In this document: piece by piece, positions 2,779 through 27,062 of the stretch
Layout of the letters: every line of letters begins with the position of its first letter
Position numbering within the stretch: the first letter of the stretch is position 1
IMG/VR virus record: IMGVR_UViG_3300029288_000097
Location: 1-64,000 of that record
Reading direction: 5' to 3' (one strand)
Length of the DNA stretch: 64,000 nucleotides
Origin: a virus
Taxonomy: Duplodnaviria; Caudoviricetes
Made by a program: the position numbers and the translations under genes
Notes under the pieces: generated by a model
Told to the model about the DNA's origin: nothing
Databases searched by the model: none
Seen by the model: only the letters and a program-made list of their open reading frames with translations

Positions 2779-2972
2779 TGTGGATTATTCGGCTGATTTT
2801 TGGCTATTGTGACTGTTGTCAGCGATGGTTTGTATACCCACGCACACGACGGCAGAGTTCAGCTTACGAAGATGATAGCCAGAACTTTATACGCTGCTGT
2901 AAAGTCTGTTTCATTGAGCGGGAGGAGCTTTGGACTGAACGGTGGCAAGAATACTGGAGTGGATGCTTATGA
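2775..2972 (+). CDS. small Cys-rich (zinc-finger-like) protein
   Basis: CDCC...CCKVC; start/stop overlaps on both sides. Confidence 0.45.
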   Translation: MMWIIRLIFGYCDCCQRWFVYPRTRRQSSAYEDDSQNFIRCCKVCFIEREELWTERWQEYWSGCL

Positions 2973-3670
2973 CTGGAATTATACTTGCAGCCGGTAAAGG
3001 AACACGGCTTGGACTTGATATACCAAAGGCAATGGTAGAGATAGCTGGTAAGCCTTTGCTATCTTATGTGATCGATGGTATGAGACGAGCTGAGGTGCGA
3101 AAAATCATTGTAGTAGTCCGGCATAGGCAGCAAATTATTAAAGACTACATCAGCACATGCTACCCGGAGATTCAATGCGTTCCTCAAGGTGTGCTCTACG
3201 GTACTGCAGCTGCTCTTAGAGTGGCAATGCCTTTGGTGGATGATAGTATGGTCTTGGCTGCTTTTGGTGATGTGTTGGCTTACCCAAATGACATCTATCG
3301 CCAGGTAGCAAATGGTTTTCAACGTGAGCACGGAGCTATTGCTATTGATTGTATAGGACCAGGTGTTGAAGAGAAGAAAGGCATCGTTCGACTCAGGCCG
3401 GATACTTCAGTCTGGCACATCGATGAAGAGCTTCCTCGGTCTGGCAAAATGAATAATACTGGGGTCTTTTCATTTTGGAAAGGGATTCTTTATGAAGCTC
3501 TACATGCTGTAAAGCGTAACCGAGATGGCGAGTATAATATGACTTCGGCCATCAATTACATAGCTCAGCGAGGTCGTGTTAATACAGTTCAGTACTATGG
3601 CACCGTATTTGACATCGGCACTCCGAGTAAGTTATACGAAGCTCGAAAGTTTATGGAGGCACGGAGATGA
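2969..3670 (+). CDS. sugar-1-phosphate nucleotidyltransferase (NTP_transferase family; HddC-like candidate)
   Basis: GIILAAGKGTRL..PKAMVEIAGKP, GTAAA, NTGVFSF and DIGTP motifs. Confidence 0.85.
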   Translation: MTGIILAAGKGTRLGLDIPKAMVEIAGKPLLSYVIDGMRRAEVRKIIVVVRHRQQIIKDYISTCYPEIQCVPQGVLYGTAAALRVAMPLVDDSMVLAAFGDVLAYPNDIYRQVANGFQREHGAIAIDCIGPGVEEKKGIVRLRPDTSVWHIDEELPRSGKMNNTGVFSFWKGILYEALHAVKRNRDGEYNMTSAINYIAQRGRVNTVQYYGTVFDIGTPSKLYEARKFMEARR

Positions 3671-4149
3671 ATTGGCAGTATTTCAAGTATGTGCTCAAAC
3701 ATCGATGGTTGGTGTTTTTGGCAGCAATAGAGCTGGGTATCCCCTGGCGAGGTTTCATTCATGATCTCAGCAAGTATAGCCTGGCTGAGTGGGGTCCATA
3801 TATGCAATGGTTTTATGGACCCTATGGTACAAACTTTGATCCTAAAAATAGCACTTTAGGGGGTCATCTAAAAGACAAAAATCATATTGCTTTCGGTAAG
3901 GCTTGGCTACACCATATTCACTGTAATGCTCACCATTGGGAGCATTGGATCATTCCCGGTAAAGAAGAATGCCCGGCTCATGGCATTCCAATCTACTGCC
4001 GAGAAATGGTAGCAGATTGGAATGCCATGAGCCGGGCACGAGGTAAGAGTGACTGCATGGCTTGGTATGAAAGTCAGCGTGATATTATTAAGCTTCACCC
4101 AACAAGTCGGCAGCTTATCGAAAGCTTTATCTATGTTCCGAAAGGATAA
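3667..4149 (+). CDS. DUF5662-like His-rich (HD-related) phage protein
   Basis: HRW..F, HDLSKY, AWLHH..N.HHWEHW and EMVADW motifs. Confidence 0.7.
   Translation: MNWQYFKYVLKHRWLVFLAAIELGIPWRGFIHDLSKYSLAEWGPYMQWFYGPYGTNFDPKNSTLGGHLKDKNHIAFGKAWLHHIHCNAHHWEHWIIPGKEECPAHGIPIYCREMVADWNAMSRARGKSDCMAWYESQRDIIKLHPTSRQLIESFIYVPKG
3970..4038. repeat. 25-bp perfect inverted repeat inside the CDS
   Basis: 3970-3994 TGCCCGGCTCATGGCATTCCAATCT is the exact reverse complement of 4014-4038. Confidence 0.95.
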
Positions 4150-4154
4150 TAAAT

Positions 4155-4646
4155 ATGCCTGTTCCTAAGACAACACGAGAAGTCACTAATGTTGATGATT
4201 TTATAGCCGGAGCTGAGGAGTGGGGCACGACTGAAATCTATTCTGAGGAAACTCTACGGAGTTTTGTTCAGCGTATGATGGACGCAGCCGATGACTATAA
4301 TTGTTCATTCGGAGCCAGCTTAACCAAGGACAAGCGTAGTATAGTTCTCACAGTTTATAGCCCTGACATCGACAAGGCTGATAAGATGTCAGATATTATG
4401 GCCGGATCGTATAAAGCTATGAATGGTCTACTGAATGAGATATTCCGGCTCCGGGCTCTAGTTGGTGGTGATAAGATCAATCAGCTAAAAATGCTCGCTA
4501 CAGAGGCAGCCGATTACTTCACTGATGAGGCTGGCACAACTTGTGACCAGGGAAATCATGATGGTGGTGGTATCTACCCATGTCAGCATTGTGAGCTGTT
4601 GGGTAGAGCTGAAGCTCTCAGAGAGGCAGTAAAGGCATTGGAATAA
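4155..4646 (+). CDS. hypothetical protein
   Basis: 163-aa ORF with AAGGA SD. Confidence 0.55.
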   Translation: MPVPKTTREVTNVDDFIAGAEEWGTTEIYSEETLRSFVQRMMDAADDYNCSFGASLTKDKRSIVLTVYSPDIDKADKMSDIMAGSYKAMNGLLNEIFRLRALVGGDKINQLKMLATEAADYFTDEAGTTCDQGNHDGGGIYPCQHCELLGRAEALREAVKALE

Positions 4647-4660
4647 GTGGAGGAAATAAA

Positions 4661-4705
4661 CAGGTAATTTTACCAGTTGTTTTCGTCTATAGGCTGAGCT
4701 ATACT
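4661..4705 (+). promoter_or_regulatory. operator palindrome + sigma70-like promoter (copy 1)
   Basis: CAGGTAATTTTACCAG, then TTGTTT-17-TATACT. Confidence 0.8.
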
Positions 4706-4744
4706 GTTACTGTAGTTGATTGATTAACCAGGAGAACAGACAAA

Positions 4745-25270: not shown

Positions 25271-25271
25271 A

Positions 25272-25317
25272 CTGGTAATTATACCAGTAGACACTTATAG
25301 CTCAGGCACAGTATAAT
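25272..25317 (+). promoter_or_regulatory. operator palindrome + promoter (copy 5)
   Basis: CTGGTAATTATACCAG, TAGACA-18-TATAAT. Confidence 0.8.
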
Positions 25318-25341
25318 GGAGGCAGGAATAAGGAGGTAGTT

Positions 25342-25992
25342 ATGGCTGAATCATCTAATGCAGAATTAGTTCCTGATGCACTGCCGAGCGATGAAGTTCT
25401 TACAATGGAAGCTGAGGCGCAGACTGAGGAGATCATAGTTGTCGATGAAGACTCTATGATGCTCATTAACACGCAAACCGGTCAAGTTGTAGGGACAGCA
25501 GAGACACCACCTGAAGGTGTTGAAGACATAAAGCTGGCCGAGTGGATCGGTGAAAAGCGAACCTGGCATAAAGGTAGAATTGCCGGGCTTGAAGCTGAGA
25601 AACAGAAATGGGTGGATACTATAAATGCTCGTTTCGATACTCAGATCAAGCGACACAAAGACTCACTGGTGTGGTATGATACCACTTATCATGATTTTCT
25701 ATTCAAGCTGGCTAAGAAGATCATTGGTAATGGTAAAAAGCGATCAGCAGCGGTTGGTTTATTATTGCTGAAGCTCAGTAAGACACGACCGAGTACCACA
25801 GTCCTCGATCAAGACAAGGCGATTGCATGGCTGACAAAAGCCGGACTCTCTGAGGCAATAAAGACCACACAATCTATCCTGGTATCGATGCTTCCAGATG
25901 AACTGAAAGCTCGATTGACTCGTGAGAGTAACCAGGAAAAAACTGGACTGGCTTTTAATCCAGGTGGTGACGATCAACTGAAAATTGAATAG
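25342..25992 (+). CDS. Mu Gam-like/Gp157-like host-nuclease inhibitor
   Basis: coiled coil followed by KKRS..G.L.L.K...D..KAIAW; strong AAGGAGG SD. Confidence 0.55.
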   Translation: MAESSNAELVPDALPSDEVLTMEAEAQTEEIIVVDEDSMMLINTQTGQVVGTAETPPEGVEDIKLAEWIGEKRTWHKGRIAGLEAEKQKWVDTINARFDTQIKRHKDSLVWYDTTYHDFLFKLAKKIIGNGKKRSAAVGLLLLKLSKTRPSTTVLDQDKAIAWLTKAGLSEAIKTTQSILVSMLPDELKARLTRESNQEKTGLAFNPGGDDQLKIE

Positions 25993-25995
25993 TGT

Positions 25996-26070
25996 TTCCG
26001 GGTAGTCTAATCGGCAGGACAGTGGCCTTTGGAGTCACGAATCGCGGTTCAAATCCGTGCCCGGAAGCCA
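25996..26070 (+). tRNA. tRNA-Gln(TTG)
   Basis: TTCCGGG/CCCGGAA acceptor (U1-A72), GTGGC-CTTTGGA-GTCAC anticodon arm, encoded CCA. Confidence 0.92.
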
Positions 26071-26078
26071 GAACAGGG

Positions 26079-27062
26079 ATGGCCGTGATTATAGTTGAAA
26101 CGCCTTTGCGTATCAGTTTTGCCGGTGGTGGCACCGACTTCAAAGATTATTATGAGACCAGCCATGGTAGTGTAGTTTCTACTGCAATAGATAAGTATGT
26201 GCAGGTCATTATCAAGAAGCGGTTTGATGCGCTTATCCGAGTAGGCTACTCACGGACTGAAATGGTTGCATCTGTAGATGAGGTGCAGCATGATCTTGTG
26301 CGAGAGTCTATGCGCCTGGTTGGAGTGAGACAGGGTGTAGAGATCGCCACAATGTCTGACGTTCCGTCTGAGGGATCGGGGCTTGGTTCCTCAAGCACGG
26401 TAACTGTTGGTTTACTTCATGCTTTGCACGCCTACAAAGGGGAAACTGTTACAGCCGGACAGTTAGCCCAAGAAGCCTGCCATATCGAACTCGATGTGCT
26501 GCATCGGCCTATAGGCAAACAAGATCAGTATATCGCTGCATATGGCGGGCTTTGTCATTTTACATTCAAGGCTGATGGTTCTGTTCTCGTTGATTCAATC
26601 AAAATTGGAGAGCGAACCCAGATGTATTTGAATGAGAGCTTGATGCTTTTCTACACAGGAATTACACGAAAATCGTCTACAGTGCTTGAGGAACAGACAA
26701 GTAATATCTACAAACGGATACCTATACTGGATGCTATGCGAGATCAGAGTGATCTACTCGCAGCAAAATTAAAGGTATTTGATCGAGTTGATCTTGGTGC
26801 AGTATTACAGGAAAACTGGGATCATAAAAAGCGTCTTGCCAGCAACATATCGAATGCAAGCATAGATGATTTCTATAAACGTGCTTTGGATGCTGGAGCC
26901 AGCGGATGTAAAATTGCTGGAGCTGGTGGTGGGGGTTTTCTACTGGTCTGTGTATCACCTAAACGGCGAAATGCAGTGCGTAGAGCTTTGCATGATCTAC
27001 GAGAATTACCTATCACACTGGCCTGTGATGGTTCAAAAATCATACTCAATACAAGGAGATAA
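26079..27062 (+). CDS. hddA: D-alpha-D-heptose-7-phosphate kinase (GHMP family)
   Basis: TPLRISFAGGGTD, GSGLGSSS, IGKQDQY, GCKIAGAGGGGF; the 25992 start in the ORF track runs through the tRNA. Confidence 0.85.
   Translation: MAVIIVETPLRISFAGGGTDFKDYYETSHGSVVSTAIDKYVQVIIKKRFDALIRVGYSRTEMVASVDEVQHDLVRESMRLVGVRQGVEIATMSDVPSEGSGLGSSSTVTVGLLHALHAYKGETVTAGQLAQEACHIELDVLHRPIGKQDQYIAAYGGLCHFTFKADGSVLVDSIKIGERTQMYLNESLMLFYTGITRKSSTVLEEQTSNIYKRIPILDAMRDQSDLLAAKLKVFDRVDLGAVLQENWDHKKRLASNISNASIDDFYKRALDAGASGCKIAGAGGGGFLLVCVSPKRRNAVRRALHDLRELPITLACDGSKIILNTRR

What the first reader, a model, noticed from the sequence alone, without database searches (positions are those of the whole stretch)
2969..27062. 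Phage-encoded dual-anomer heptose pathway with a glycan-decoration operon
Seen: GmhA (14726), GmhB (21152), an HddA-type GHMP kinase (26079), an HldE-type PfkB kinase (10757) and an NTP transferase (2969). There is also a contiguous run of radical SAM - GmhA - GT-A - methyltransferase - GT4 - TylF-like O-methyltransferase, then a GtrA-like membrane protein (13738-19096). Established: GmhA-HddA-GmhB-HddC makes GDP-alpha-D,D-heptose (S-layer, capsule and flagellin glycans), while the HldE kinase feeds the beta/ADP-heptose LPS branch. Individual heptose enzymes have been reported in viruses. Inference: this phage makes its own NDP-heptose and builds an O-methylated heptose glycan. The acceptor could be virion proteins, its secreted proteins, the host surface (receptor masking) or DNA. 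Having both kinase types plus dedicated transferases points to a system rather than stray auxiliary genes. No HldE adenylyltransferase domain is visible in this window.
Basis: partly seen in the sequence, partly recalled or inferred. Interest (0 to 1): 0.85.

Follow-up and report, generated by a model that had tools for sequence, protein, structure and literature searches.

The report
Phage heptose sugar-coating gene system
An uncultured 114-kb phage spends about a tenth of its genome on making activated seven-carbon sugars (heptoses) and on four sugar transferases and two methyltransferases, most likely to sugar-coat its own tail proteins, though no sugar has been observed.

Summary
GmhA, GmhB, an HldA-type PfkB kinase, an HddA-type GHMP kinase and an NTP transferase each find the named family as best hit. 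All fall below the curated equivalog cut-offs. The tight run rSAM-GmhA-GT-A-MT-GT4-MT is also real. The "GtrA-like" protein is not supported. The NTP transferase is not HddC-like by sequence.

The window holds only part of the system. The phage is a complete 113,976-bp record, and further on it carries a stand-alone HldC-like nucleotidyltransferase, a true GalE and two GT9 (heptosyltransferase-family) genes placed among its tail genes.

In five complete relatives, HldA and the GT9 pair are universal. HldC, GmhA and GT-A occur in four of five. HddA, GmhB and an NTP transferase appear together in only two. The glycan island is a swappable cassette at a fixed site. An unrelated phage fuses GT9 to GT-A and GT4 to the methyltransferase, which ties the two loci together.

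No known route to a DNA sugar acceptor is encoded, and no lipid-carrier or flippase genes were found. Best reading (about 0.5): heptose-primed, O-methylated glycans on tail proteins.

This scan has noted similar phage heptose/GT9 modules on about 80 other DNAs, all untested. I found no publication describing one.

The parts
2969..3670 (+). Sugar-1-phosphate nucleotidylyltransferase (NTP_transferase family). It is a candidate alpha-heptose-1-P or hexose/HexNAc-1-P activating enzyme.
   Evidence: PF00483 scores 69 bits. The best NCBIfam and PDB hits are archaeal GlmU N-terminal domain, ST0452 and GlmU; HddC scores only 47 bits, N-terminal part only. Homologs are named GlmU or UDP-GlcNAc pyrophosphorylase. 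The GxGTRL motif is present. G012 has an NTP_transferase at the same position next to DUF5662.
9657..9672 (+). Dyad box CTGGTA-N4-TACCAG ahead of the unit o9710-HldA-exonuclease-MT-A70-island.
   Evidence: Exact match. There are 10 boxes in the window against 0.1 expected by chance. A promoter-like site follows at 9673-9701.
10757..11656 (+). HldA-type (RfaE domain I) PfkB kinase: heptose-7-P to beta-heptose-1,7-bisphosphate.
   Evidence: rfaE_dom_I scores 198 bits (cut-off 345) against ribokinase 75. PDB HldA 4e84 scores 91 bits against ribokinase 32. The GGAAN and DVSGAGD motifs are present. Present in 5 of 5 complete relatives.
13738..14724 (+). Radical SAM enzyme of an uncharacterised ~330-aa family. 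Role in sugar tailoring is inferred only.
   Evidence: Radical_SAM and Fer4_12 hits and a CNLDCWYC motif. Atlas look-alikes are unnamed rSAM clusters. It sits next to GmhA in G013 and G015.
14726..15283 (+). GmhA, sedoheptulose-7-P isomerase.
   Evidence: PRK13936 scores 122 bits and TIGR00441 115 bits, both below cut-off. The top 10 PDB hits are all phosphoheptose isomerases. Present in G012, G013, G015, G006 and G014.
15287..16072 (+). GT-A fold glycosyltransferase, GnT-I/GT13-like, with an invariant EDD motif.
   Evidence: AF2 pLDDT is 94.2. Foldseek top hits are GnT-I 1foa at E 2e-10, POMGNT1 and GnT-II. Homologs carry PF03071 or PF05060. E100, D101 and D102 are invariant. It is fused to a GT9 domain in phage G014.
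16094..16723 (+). Class I SAM methyltransferase (Methyltransf_23), probably a sugar O-methyltransferase.
   Evidence: PF13489 scores 51 bits. It is 70% identical in G013. A Methyltransf_23 domain is fused to the GT4 homolog in G014.
16720..17739 (+). GT4-like (GT-B) glycosyltransferase. Its start overlaps the stop of the methyltransferase gene.
   Evidence: PF13439 scores 29.6 bits over a short stretch. Orthologs at 55-59% identity occur in G012, G013 and G006, and at 37% in G014.
17736..18824 (+). Methyltransf_24/TylF-clan SAM methyltransferase (residues ~1-175) followed by an acidic, Thr/Glu/Asp-rich tail.
   Evidence: PF13578 scores 26.0 bits (cut-off 26.3) and TylF 16 bits. The sequence was read.
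18887..19096 (+). Small hydrophobic protein (69 aa) conserved at the island's end. Not shown to be GtrA.
   Evidence: 1-2 hydrophobic segments. No Pfam hit. 66-83% identical in G006, G013 and G015.
19166..20983 (+). Beta-helix protein with an N-terminal signal-peptide-like segment, behind its own dyad-box promoter (19077-19092). It is a possible acceptor or a glycan-active enzyme.
   Evidence: Beta_helix and NosD hits. Hydrophobic N-terminus. Dyad box. 61% identical in G013 and 40% in G012.
21098..21703 (+). GmhB, heptose-1,7-bisphosphate 7-phosphatase (HAD-IIIA), behind a dyad box at 20985-21000. Its 3' end overlaps the tmRNA gene.
   Evidence: PRK08942 scores 139 bits (cut-off 178). The HAD-IIIA and histidinol-phosphatase-domain models score above their cut-offs. 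Top PDB hits are GmhB structures. The DRDGV, TNQ, CDCRKP and GDRPSD motifs are present.
26079..27062 (+). HddA-type GHMP kinase: heptose-7-P to alpha-heptose-1,7-bisphosphate. It lies in the unit that starts at dyad box 25272.
   Evidence: NF049969 scores 159 bits (cut-off 600). PDB WcbL, 3k85 and 4n3o score 117-142 bits against fucokinase 62. The GSGLGSSS motif is present. tRNA-Gln at 25996-26067 fixes the start.

Best explanation
This is a phage-encoded heptose glycosylation system spread over three loci of one 114-kb genome.

Supply (shown by homology). GmhA turns sedoheptulose-7-P into heptose-7-P. [quoted passage not shown] No HldD epimerase is present, so the sugar stays D,D. In parallel, HddA and GmhB make alpha-heptose-1-P. 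The single NTP_transferase-family enzyme may activate it.

Transfer (inferred). Two GT9 heptosyltransferase-family enzymes lie between the putative tape-measure gene and the distal tail genes (genome 67527-68483 and 69498-70508). They would put the first heptose on an acceptor. The acceptor is most likely Ser/Thr-rich tail proteins encoded directly downstream.

Elaboration (inferred). The island enzymes would extend and cap the glycan: a GnT-I-like GT-A, a GT4-like GT-B, two SAM methyltransferases and a radical SAM enzyme. The GalE found elsewhere could supply a UDP-hexose or UDP-HexNAc.

The supply genes in the window sit behind the phage's dyad-box promoters together with DNA-metabolism genes. 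The GT9 genes sit in the structural block, which has no boxes. The island is a swappable cassette at a fixed site, as expected for a surface glycan under diversifying selection.
For: 1. Family assignments and intact motifs.
2. Both GT9 genes score above the Pfam cut-off. The AF2 model of GT9b (pLDDT 93) matches only GT9 structures at the top: 3tov, WaaF, WaaC and TibC at E 1e-15 to 1e-8, against 1e-5 for the next fold.
3. Phyletic pattern in 5 complete genomes: HldA 5/5, GT9 pair 5/5, HldC 4/5, GmhA 4/5, GT-A 4/5.
4. Conserved position. In 12 IMG/VR loci, down to 37% identity, GT9b keeps the same flanking genes: homologs of o67107, o70489, o70903 and o71418. The ORFs just downstream have the highest Ser+Thr content in the genome; o70903 has 28% against a median of 11%.
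5. Fusions in an unrelated phage, G014. One ORF joins GT9 to the GT-A homolog, GmhA follows, and another ORF joins the GT4 homolog to a Methyltransf_23 domain. In G001 one GT9 copy sits inside the island.
6. All island enzymes are soluble. No polyprenyl-phosphate transferase, flippase or polymerase-like multi-pass protein was found.
7. No Tet/JBP, ThyA-type or C5-methyltransferase gene is present.
8. Dyad boxes precede the units that hold HldA plus the island, GmhB and HddA.
Against: No glycan, acceptor or enzyme activity has been observed. Every heptose enzyme scores below its curated equivalog cut-off.

The 'tail module' label rests on gene order and one weak PHROG hit to a major tail protein at 60747-61376. 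The large neighbouring proteins have no PHROG match.

High Ser/Thr content is common in tail fibres anyway.

The GT9 fold cannot tell an LPS acceptor from a protein acceptor. The model shows no TibC-type N-terminal beta-barrel.

The supply genes are expressed with early or DNA-metabolism units, and the island adjoins a DNA methyltransferase gene.

G015 lacks HldC. G001 lacks GmhA. Most relatives lack GmhB. So host enzymes must fill gaps, and the host is unknown.
Confidence: 0.5

Rival explanations
1. Host-envelope remodelling. The GT9 enzymes and island transferases modify the host's LPS core or another surface glycan during infection. This would mask receptors or block superinfection. The heptose genes would boost donor supply.
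For: Characterised GT9 enzymes WaaC and WaaF act on LPS inner core, and they are among the top structural matches. Relatives that lack GmhA or GmhB must rely on a host heptose pathway, which suggests a heptose-making host. A swappable glycan island also fits serotype-conversion logic.
Against: The GT9 pair is universal and fixed in position among tail genes across the clade, not moron-like. No lipid-carrier transferase, flippase, ligase or GtrA/B-type gene was found. The phage has no detected integrase context and looks lytic, so lasting serotype conversion is unlikely.
Confidence: 0.2
2. BAHT-like modification of exported phage proteins. The cytoplasmic GT9 enzymes heptosylate the signal-peptide-bearing beta-helix protein (19166-20983) and the two related proteins at 55429-57545 before export. 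This would parallel TibC and Aah acting on autotransporter beta-helices.
For: The beta-helix gene abuts the island behind its own dyad-box promoter and has a hydrophobic N-terminus. TibC is among the structural matches, with the lowest rmsd. TibC uses ADP-D,D-heptose (PMC4358343), and this phage encodes no HldD. The beta-helix protein is 17% Ser+Thr.
Against: Full-length beta-helix homologs occur in only 3 of 5 complete genomes, whereas GT9 is in 5 of 5. The GT9 model lacks TibC's N-terminal beta-barrel. The Cys4 motif is also present in cellular GT9 homologs, so it is not diagnostic. The GT9 genes are 47 kb from the beta-helix gene.
Confidence: 0.12
3. DNA hypermodification. The transferases put heptose-containing glycans on phage DNA bases to evade restriction.
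For: A phage gene cluster has been shown to add mono- and di-heptose to 5hmC in E. coli (bioRxiv 10.1101/2023.12.21.572611). The island lies beside an MT-A70 DNA methyltransferase gene, among nucleotide-metabolism genes (dUTPase, ThyX) and under the same promoter type.
Against: The genome has no Tet/JBP dioxygenase, ThyA-type hydroxymethylase or hydroxylase, or C5-cytosine methyltransferase. These are the known ways to create the hydroxyl acceptor. ThyX and dUTPase point to ordinary dTMP. Placing GT9 genes inside the tail genes is hard to explain for a DNA function.
Confidence: 0.08
4. Loose auxiliary metabolic genes. The heptose enzymes merely boost host LPS or capsule precursor pools, or part of the set serves other nucleotide chemistry, and no dedicated glycan is built. 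The HldC-like enzyme next to an AAA_28 NadR-type kinase and a NUDIX protein would be an example of the latter.
For: Single heptose genes are annotated in unrelated phages such as Caulobacter phage Cr30 and Synechococcus phages. HldC lies near an AAA_28 kinase in this phage and G013, and near a NUDIX gene in G001.
Against: HldC scores 129 bits to rfaE_dom_II against about 20 bits to NMN adenylyltransferase models. The genes recur together, share promoters, and are fused or adjacent to transferases in other phages.
Confidence: 0.1

Closest known systems
Bacterial autotransporter heptosyltransferases (BAHT: TibC, Aah) with the ADP-heptose pathway (eLife 2014, PMC4358343)
   Same: Both use a soluble GT9-related GT-B enzyme with NDP-beta-heptose, proposed here to O-glycosylate Ser/Thr-rich proteins in the cytoplasm. 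TibC is among the top structural matches. The donor would be D,D-heptose, as for TibC.
   Different: The phage enzymes are 318-336 aa. The model shows no N-terminal beta-barrel and nothing indicating a dodecamer. Sequence similarity is closer to 3tov and WaaF. The acceptors would be phage tail proteins, and further transferases and methyltransferases are attached to the system.
LPS inner-core heptosyltransferases WaaC/WaaF (CAZy GT9) with GmhA-HldE-GmhB-HldD
   Same: Pfam GT9 membership, the same fold and the donor-binding motif DSGxxH...GPTD are shared. GmhA, an HldA-type kinase, GmhB and an HldC-type transferase are all present.
   Different: The kinase and nucleotidyltransferase are separate genes 84 kb apart. 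No HldD is present. The GT9 genes sit among phage tail genes. The phage GT9 clade is sharply separated from cellular ones, dropping from 166 to 61 bits.
GDP-D-glycero-alpha-D-manno-heptose pathway GmhA-HddA-GmhB-HddC (S-layer and capsule glycans; Aneurinibacillus, Campylobacter, Burkholderia WcbL)
   Same: GmhA, an HddA-type GHMP kinase and GmhB are present. The best solved relatives of the kinase are WcbL, 3k85 and 4n3o. In relative G006, GmhA, an NTP transferase and HddA are contiguous.
   Different: No HddC ortholog is present. The NTP transferases in G000, G012 and G006 are GlmU-, RmlA- or GalU-like, and only about 27% identical where two of them were compared. The nucleotide used is unknown.
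Mycobacteriophage virion glycosylation (Freeman et al. 2023, known to me from memory and seen cited in library papers) and chlorovirus PBCV-1 capsid glycosylation (A064R transferase-methyltransferase, from memory)
   Same: In all cases a virus encodes its own transferases, and in PBCV-1 a fused methyltransferase, to decorate its own structural proteins with methylated sugars in the cytoplasm.
   Different: Those systems use host-made hexose or rhamnose-type donors. They are not known to encode heptose synthesis or GT9 enzymes. No homology to them was tested here.
Phage DNA glycan hypermodification clusters (Burke et al., bioRxiv 10.1101/2023.12.21.572611)
   Same: Both are phage clusters combining sugar activation (there a HAD/APH enzyme plus a cytidylyltransferase) with transferases. 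Heptose is among the sugars transferred there.
   Different: Those clusters depend on C5-MT plus a TET-like oxygenase, or on a ThyA homolog, to make 5hmC or 5hmU, and they use T4 beta-GT-like enzymes. None of these is present here.

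Membership tests
GmhA (sedoheptulose-7-P isomerase) | Score above the curated equivalog cut-off | tested here: not met
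   PRK13936 scores 122.3 against 276, and TIGR00441 scores 114.9 against 209.45.
GmhA (sedoheptulose-7-P isomerase) | GmhA is the best family and best solved relative; the SIS fold with the GNGGS motif and the C-terminal His region is kept | tested here: met
   The top 10 PDB hits are phosphoheptose isomerases, and DiaA ranks lower. The alignment keeps GNGGS and the E-x-H region. From memory of the E. coli numbering, the residue matching Glu65 is Asp. I did not verify this against a reference sequence.
HldA / RfaE domain I (beta-heptose-7-P 1-kinase) | Curated cut-off | tested here: not met
   TIGR02198 scores 197.9 against 345.
HldA / RfaE domain I (beta-heptose-7-P 1-kinase) | Closest to HldA rather than other PfkB kinases; PfkB motifs present | tested here: met
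   198 bits against ribokinase 75. PDB 4e84 scores 91 against ribokinase 32. GGAAN and DVSGAGD are present.
HldC / RfaE domain II (heptose-1-P adenylyltransferase) | Curated cut-off and HxGH / ISSTxxR motifs | tested here: inconclusive
   TIGR02199 scores 129.2 against 181.5, but it is far the best family (NMNAT models about 20 bits). PDB HldC 5x9q scores 80 bits, and ethanolamine-P cytidylyltransferase 70. HAGH is present. The second motif reads HSST. Nucleotide specificity was not testable.
GmhB (heptose-1,7-bisphosphate 7-phosphatase) | HAD-IIIA core with DxDGT, TNQ, Zn-loop CxC-RKP and GDxxxD motifs; curated cut-offs | tested here: met
   All motifs are present. TIGR01662 (90.3 against 44.6) and TIGR01656 (110.4 against 84.15) are above cut-off. 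The equivalog PRK08942 is below it (138.6 against 178). The top PDB hits are GmhB. Anomer preference was not testable.
HddA (alpha-heptose-7-P 1-kinase, GHMP) | Curated cut-off | tested here: not met
   NF049969 scores 158.6 against 600.
HddA (alpha-heptose-7-P 1-kinase, GHMP) | Closest to characterised heptose GHMP kinases; GHMP motif II present | tested here: met
   WcbL 4usk scores 142 bits, 3k85 scores 129 and 4n3o scores 117, against fucokinase 62. GSGLGSSS is present.
HddC (alpha-heptose-1-P guanylyltransferase) | Specific sequence similarity to HddC over the full length | tested here: not met
   NF049965 scores 47.5 bits against 300 and covers residues 10-112 only. GlmU, ST0452 and RmlA rank higher. 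Named homologs are GlmU or UDP-GlcNAc pyrophosphorylase.
HddC (alpha-heptose-1-P guanylyltransferase) | Genomic association with HddA and GmhB | tested here: met
   An NTP_transferase gene is present in G000 and G012, which both have HddA and GmhB, and lies between GmhA and HddA in G006. G013 and G015 have none. G001 has only a weak match inside a 531-aa ORF of a different island. The sample is small and the NTP-transferase genes are not orthologous, so this supports the function, not family membership.
CAZy GT9 / Pfam PF01075 heptosyltransferases | Pfam gathering score and GT-B fold closest to GT9 structures | tested here: met
   Scores are 46.9 and 40.4-42.5 bits against a cut-off of 22. All 113 listed homologs of E<=0.001 carry PF01075. 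The top Foldseek hits are only GT9. The N-terminal GD and the DSGxxH...GPTD motifs are conserved.
BAHT (TibC/Aah protein heptosyltransferases) | N-terminal beta-barrel, beta-hairpin thumb, iron-finger Cys4, dodecamer | tested here: not met
   The model starts directly with the Rossmann strand at residue 7 and has no beta-barrel. A CxxC-x5-C-x11-C motif exists, but cellular GT9 homologs share it. Oligomeric state was not testable.
GT13/GT16 (GnT-I/GnT-II-like GT-A) | GT-A fold with a DxD motif, closest to GnT-I | tested here: inconclusive
   The top Foldseek hits are GnT-I, POMGNT1 and GnT-II, at TM 0.59-0.65 and 16-18% identity. EDD is invariant. The protein itself has no Pfam hit, though some homologs carry PF03071 or PF05060.
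GtrA (PF04138) flippase-like protein | About 120 aa, four membrane helices, Pfam match | tested here: not met
   The ORF is 69 aa with 1-2 hydrophobic segments and no Pfam hit at E<=0.01.
TylF macrocin O-methyltransferase family | Pfam PF05711 gathering score | tested here: not met
   16.2 bits against 23. Methyltransf_24 is borderline at 26.0 against 26.3.
Phage DNA sugar hypermodification systems | An enzyme that creates a hydroxylated base: C5-MT plus Tet/JBP, or a ThyA homolog | tested here: not met
   PF12851, PF00303 and PF00145 give no match at E<=1 in the whole genome.

The most novel reading that the evidence does not exclude
The phage deliberately makes both anomeric heptose donors, because its transferases need different ones. 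Inverting GT9 enzymes would take NDP-beta-heptose to prime tail proteins. The GT-A and GT4 enzymes would take an alpha-linked NDP-heptose (activated by a non-HddC nucleotidyltransferase) or hexose to extend the chain, and methyltransferases would cap it. The result would be a virus-built, heptose-based glycan coat on the tail, whose cassette is swapped between relatives to change host range or escape recognition. That would be the first virus with both complete heptose pathways and the first demonstrated heptosylated virion.
Probability: 0.25. Interest if true: 0.8.

Novelty: new variant of a known kind. Interest (0 to 1): 0.6.

Why it matters
Glycosylated phage particles are known from only a few systems. 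In those, the donors come from the host.

Here a whole uncultured phage clade keeps two heptosyltransferase-family genes locked inside its tail genes. At least 95 protein clusters hold close GT9 homologs. No relative was found among 50,697 GenBank phage records. The clade also carries its own donor-synthesis genes and a swappable tailoring cassette.

If the tail proteins are indeed heptosylated, this would be a new layer of host-range and defence-evasion biology. It would also be a natural source of soluble protein-heptosylating and heptose-tailoring enzymes. And it would be a viral source of NDP-heptoses, which are innate-immune agonists in animals (Tang et al. 2024, as summarised in PMC11461863).

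The case also shows that non-orthologous nucleotidyltransferases may stand in for HddC.

Tried and rejected
- Megablast of the region against GenBank phages found no match. TerL and GT9b tblastn found no cultured relative.
- HldD: the SDR gene at genome 93140-94102 is a true GalE (387 bits, above cut-off). It is not the heptose epimerase, which scores 122 bits.
- DNA acceptor route: Tet_JBP, ThyA-type and C5-MT searches of the whole genome were all empty.
- GtrA: no support.
- I first thought the C-terminal Cys4 motif of the phage GT9s marked them as BAHT-like, like TibC's iron finger. I rejected this because distant cellular GT9 homologs in the same alignment have it too.
- Host inference from GalE against 185,579 species genomes gave at most 47% identity across many phyla, so there is no signal. 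The Atlas look-alikes of the beta-helix protein score only 0.86 and span mixed phyla.
- PHROGs annotation of the tail-region proteins gave almost nothing.
- The generic promoter and terminator scan is barely above shuffles. Only the dyad box is informative.
I took contexts from IMG/VR through the search for related loci and the fetch from genomes instead.
- I did not build a phylogeny of the NTP transferase against reference HddC, because no reference sequences could be fetched by id.
- The search of protein representatives and the metagenome scan were not used.

Full report
**What the sequence is.** The window is bases 1-64000 of a single 113,976-bp IMG/VR virus record that CheckV rates 100% complete. 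It is a tailed phage. TerL lies at 45350-46972, the portal gene at 47013-48794, a fused protease/major-head gene at 51648-54824 and the DNA polymerase at 38574-41261. No cultured relative exists in 50,697 GenBank phage records; TerL is at best 31% identical to any of them. The host is unknown.

**Check of the observation.**
- The PfkB kinase scores 198 bits to RfaE domain I, against 75 to ribokinase.
- GmhA scores 122 bits.
- GmhB scores 139 bits.
- The GHMP kinase scores 159 bits to HddA.

Solved structures agree. The best relatives are HldA 4e84 for the PfkB kinase; WcbL, 3k85 and 4n3o for the GHMP kinase; phosphoheptose isomerases for GmhA; and GmhB structures for GmhB. Signature motifs are intact. 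All scores are below NCBIfam's curated equivalog cut-offs, so these are divergent members and I file them as such.

The gene run is tightly packed: rSAM (13738-14724), GmhA (14726-15283), GT-A (15287-16072), Methyltransf_23 (16094-16723), GT4-like (16720-17739) and Methyltransf_24 (17736-18824). Two gene junctions overlap by 4 bases.

The GT-A has no Pfam hit of its own. Its AlphaFold model (pLDDT 94) matches GnT-I, POMGNT1 and GnT-II best. An EDD motif is invariant in 27 homologs.

Two items fail. The 'GtrA-like' protein is a 69-aa hydrophobic ORF with no Pfam match. 'TylF-like' is only a sub-threshold hit.

**The NTP transferase.** This gene (2969-3670) is a genuine sugar-1-P nucleotidylyltransferase. 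It resembles the GlmU N-terminal domain, ST0452 and RmlA far more than HddC. Its named homologs are GlmU-type.

**What lies outside the window.** The same genome has a stand-alone cytidylyltransferase-fold gene at 94448-94852. Its best family by a wide margin is RfaE domain II, that is HldC (129 bits; NMN adenylyltransferase models score about 20). A true GalE lies at 93140-94102 (387 bits, above cut-off) and is not HldD.

Following a lead from an earlier first-stage note (e1-5915168), I tested for GT9. Two genes at 67527-68483 and 69498-70508 pass the Pfam GT9 cut-off. All 113 listed homologs (E<=0.001) of the second gene carry PF01075. Its model (pLDDT 93) matches only GT9 structures at the top: 3tov, WaaF, WaaC and TibC.

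By gene order these two genes sit after a weak major-tail-protein hit (60747-61376) and a 1594-aa ORF in the tape-measure position. They sit before five large distal proteins. The tail assignment is therefore positional.

In total 14 genes, about 11.7 kb or 10% of the genome, are sugar-related.

**Relatives.** I fetched four complete relatives (G001, G012, G013, G015), several fragments, and an unrelated phage (G014), and compared them locally.

| Gene or set | Presence in the five complete genomes (this phage included) |
|---|---|
| HldA | 5 of 5 |
| GT9 pair | 5 of 5 |
| HldC | 4 of 5 (absent from G015) |
| GmhA | 4 of 5 (absent from G001) |
| GT-A | 4 of 5 (absent from G001) |
| HddA + GmhB + an NTP_transferase gene | together in this phage and G012 only |

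- In this phage and in G012 the NTP transferase sits next to the same DUF5662 gene. G013 and G015 have no NTP transferase.
- In fragment G006, GmhA, an NTP transferase and HddA are contiguous.
- Of the three NTP transferases, the window's and G012's are only 27% identical, and none is HddC-like. If they serve the alpha branch, they do so as non-orthologous replacements.
- G013 has the same rSAM-GmhA-GT-A-MT-GT4-MT island but no alpha-branch genes. The alpha branch is therefore accessory.

The island always lies between an MT-A70/zinc-ribbon gene pair and dUTPase. In G001 that site holds a different cassette: three GT2, two GT4, two methyltransferases, an rSAM, a PMI/GMP-like pair and one of the two GT9 genes.

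**Links between the loci.** In G014, which shares only about five genes with this phage, one ORF joins a GT9 domain (PF01075, 44 bits) to a homolog of the window's GT-A (197 bits). GmhA follows, and then an ORF joining the GT4 homolog to a Methyltransf_23 domain. These fusions argue that GT9 works with GT-A, and GT4 with the methyltransferase, in one pathway.

In 12 IMG/VR loci, down to 37% identity, the GT9b ortholog keeps the same neighbours: homologs of o67107, o70489, o70903 and o71418. The ORFs just downstream are the most Ser/Thr-rich in the genome. o70903 has 28% against a median of 11%.

**Regulation.** The dyad box CTGGTA-N4-TACCAG was reported by an earlier agent (e1-5915158), and I confirmed its positions. 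It precedes four units:
- o9710-HldA through the island (9657);
- the beta-helix gene (19077);
- GmhB (20985);
- Gam-like/HddA/ThyX (25272).

There are 10 boxes in the window against 0.1 expected. Between 61.5 and 95.2 kb the only match is a 1-mismatch one inside GT9b, so the structural block that holds the GT9 genes has no such box ahead of its genes.

**Which acceptor.**
- DNA is disfavoured. The genome has no Tet/JBP, ThyA-type or C5-methyltransferase gene, and these are the known routes to the hydroxylated base used by phage DNA glycosyltransferases. That includes the reported heptosyl-5hmC cluster.
- A lipid-linked host glycan has no dedicated machinery. All island enzymes are soluble, and I found no flippase, polymerase or polyprenyl-phosphate transferase.
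- The fixed position of the GT9 pair among tail genes across the clade points to virion proteins.
- Exported proteins remain possible. The beta-helix protein beside the island has a signal-peptide-like N-terminus, and TibC-type enzymes do heptosylate beta-helices. However, the phage GT9 model lacks TibC's beta-barrel, and the Cys4 motif is shared with cellular GT9 homologs.
- LPS remodelling cannot be excluded from the fold alone.

**Mechanism proposed.**
- Shown by homology: GmhA, then HldA, then GmhB or a host phosphatase, then HldC, giving NDP-D,D-beta-heptose. HddA and GmhB give alpha-heptose-1-P.
- Inferred: the NTP transferase activates alpha-heptose-1-P, or alternatively a hexose or HexNAc-1-P. 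The GT9 enzymes prime tail proteins. GT-A and GT4 extend the glycan, the methyltransferases cap it, and the rSAM enzyme tailors it.
- One suggestive analogy: the enzymes closest in fold to the GT-A all add GlcNAc to the 2-position of mannose, and heptose is manno-configured.

**Novelty and standing.** The following are each known:
- viral NDP-heptose enzymes (summarised in PMC11461863);
- heptosylated phage DNA;
- protein heptosylation by BAHTs;
- mycobacteriophage virion glycosylation (cited in papers; details from memory).

My library searches found no description of phage GT9 genes in a tail module or of a phage with both heptose kinases. This scan has flagged similar phage heptose/GT9 modules beside Ser-rich fibres on about 80 other DNAs. 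Those are unchecked AI notes and are not independent evidence.

I rate this a new variant of a known kind, with interest 0.6.

Noticed in passing
window 21674-22100: A phage-encoded tmRNA (Rfam RF00023, 130 bits; ARAGORN tag peptide ends ...EEMLLAA). Its first 30 bases overlap the last codons of gmhB. tRNA-Asn follows at 22108-22180.
   Followed up: partly
window 25996-26067: tRNA-Gln(TTG) lies between the Gam-like gene and HddA, inside the longest ORF call for HddA. The real HddA start is therefore 26079.
   Followed up: yes
L068:691-2523 (-) and L067:17593-19308 (-), phage G014 (IMGVR_UViG_3300029882_000009): An otherwise unrelated 98-kb phage carries a GT9/GT-A fusion protein, then GmhA, then a GT4/Methyltransf_23 fusion. 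This is a compact version of the same system.
   Followed up: partly
L025:12041-19321 and L026:646-7286, phage G001 (IMGVR_UViG_3300014205_000187): At the site where this phage has its heptose island, the relative G001 has a different cassette: three GT2, two GT4, two methyltransferases, an rSAM, a PMI-like gene, a 531-aa NTP-transferase-like gene and one GT9.
   Followed up: partly
window 17736-18824: The second methyltransferase carries a ~190-residue C-terminal extension that is extremely acidic and Thr/Glu/Asp-rich, with runs such as DDDEEEEDDD. Its function is unknown.
   Followed up: no
window 19166-20983, 55429-56415, 56424-57545: Three proteins have signal-peptide-like N-termini, which is unusual for phage proteins. 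Two of them lie between the head and neck genes. The beta-helix protein's C-terminal part matches G001 at about 63.2 kb, where G001's homolog of the 56424 protein lies.
   Followed up: partly
genome 91867-94852 (L002:10868-13853): An unknown 210-aa gene, an AAA_28 (NadR-type) P-loop kinase, GalE, a 124-aa ORF and the HldC-like gene form a tight cluster. The kinase and HldC are also neighbours in G013. The kinase's substrate is unknown.
   Followed up: partly
window 9710-10705: A conserved 331-aa protein at the head of the HldA operon has a GDHDPSG motif that recalls Toprim domains. It has no Pfam or NCBIfam hit.
   Followed up: no
window 13236-13787: A 183-aa protein with two CxxC pairs always accompanies the MT-A70 methyltransferase at the island border in all relatives. 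It has no family hit.
   Followed up: no
genome 68483-69217 (L001:5484-6218): An HNH/DNA-binding-like ORF (weak PHROG hits) sits between the two GT9 genes and is conserved in relatives.
   Followed up: no
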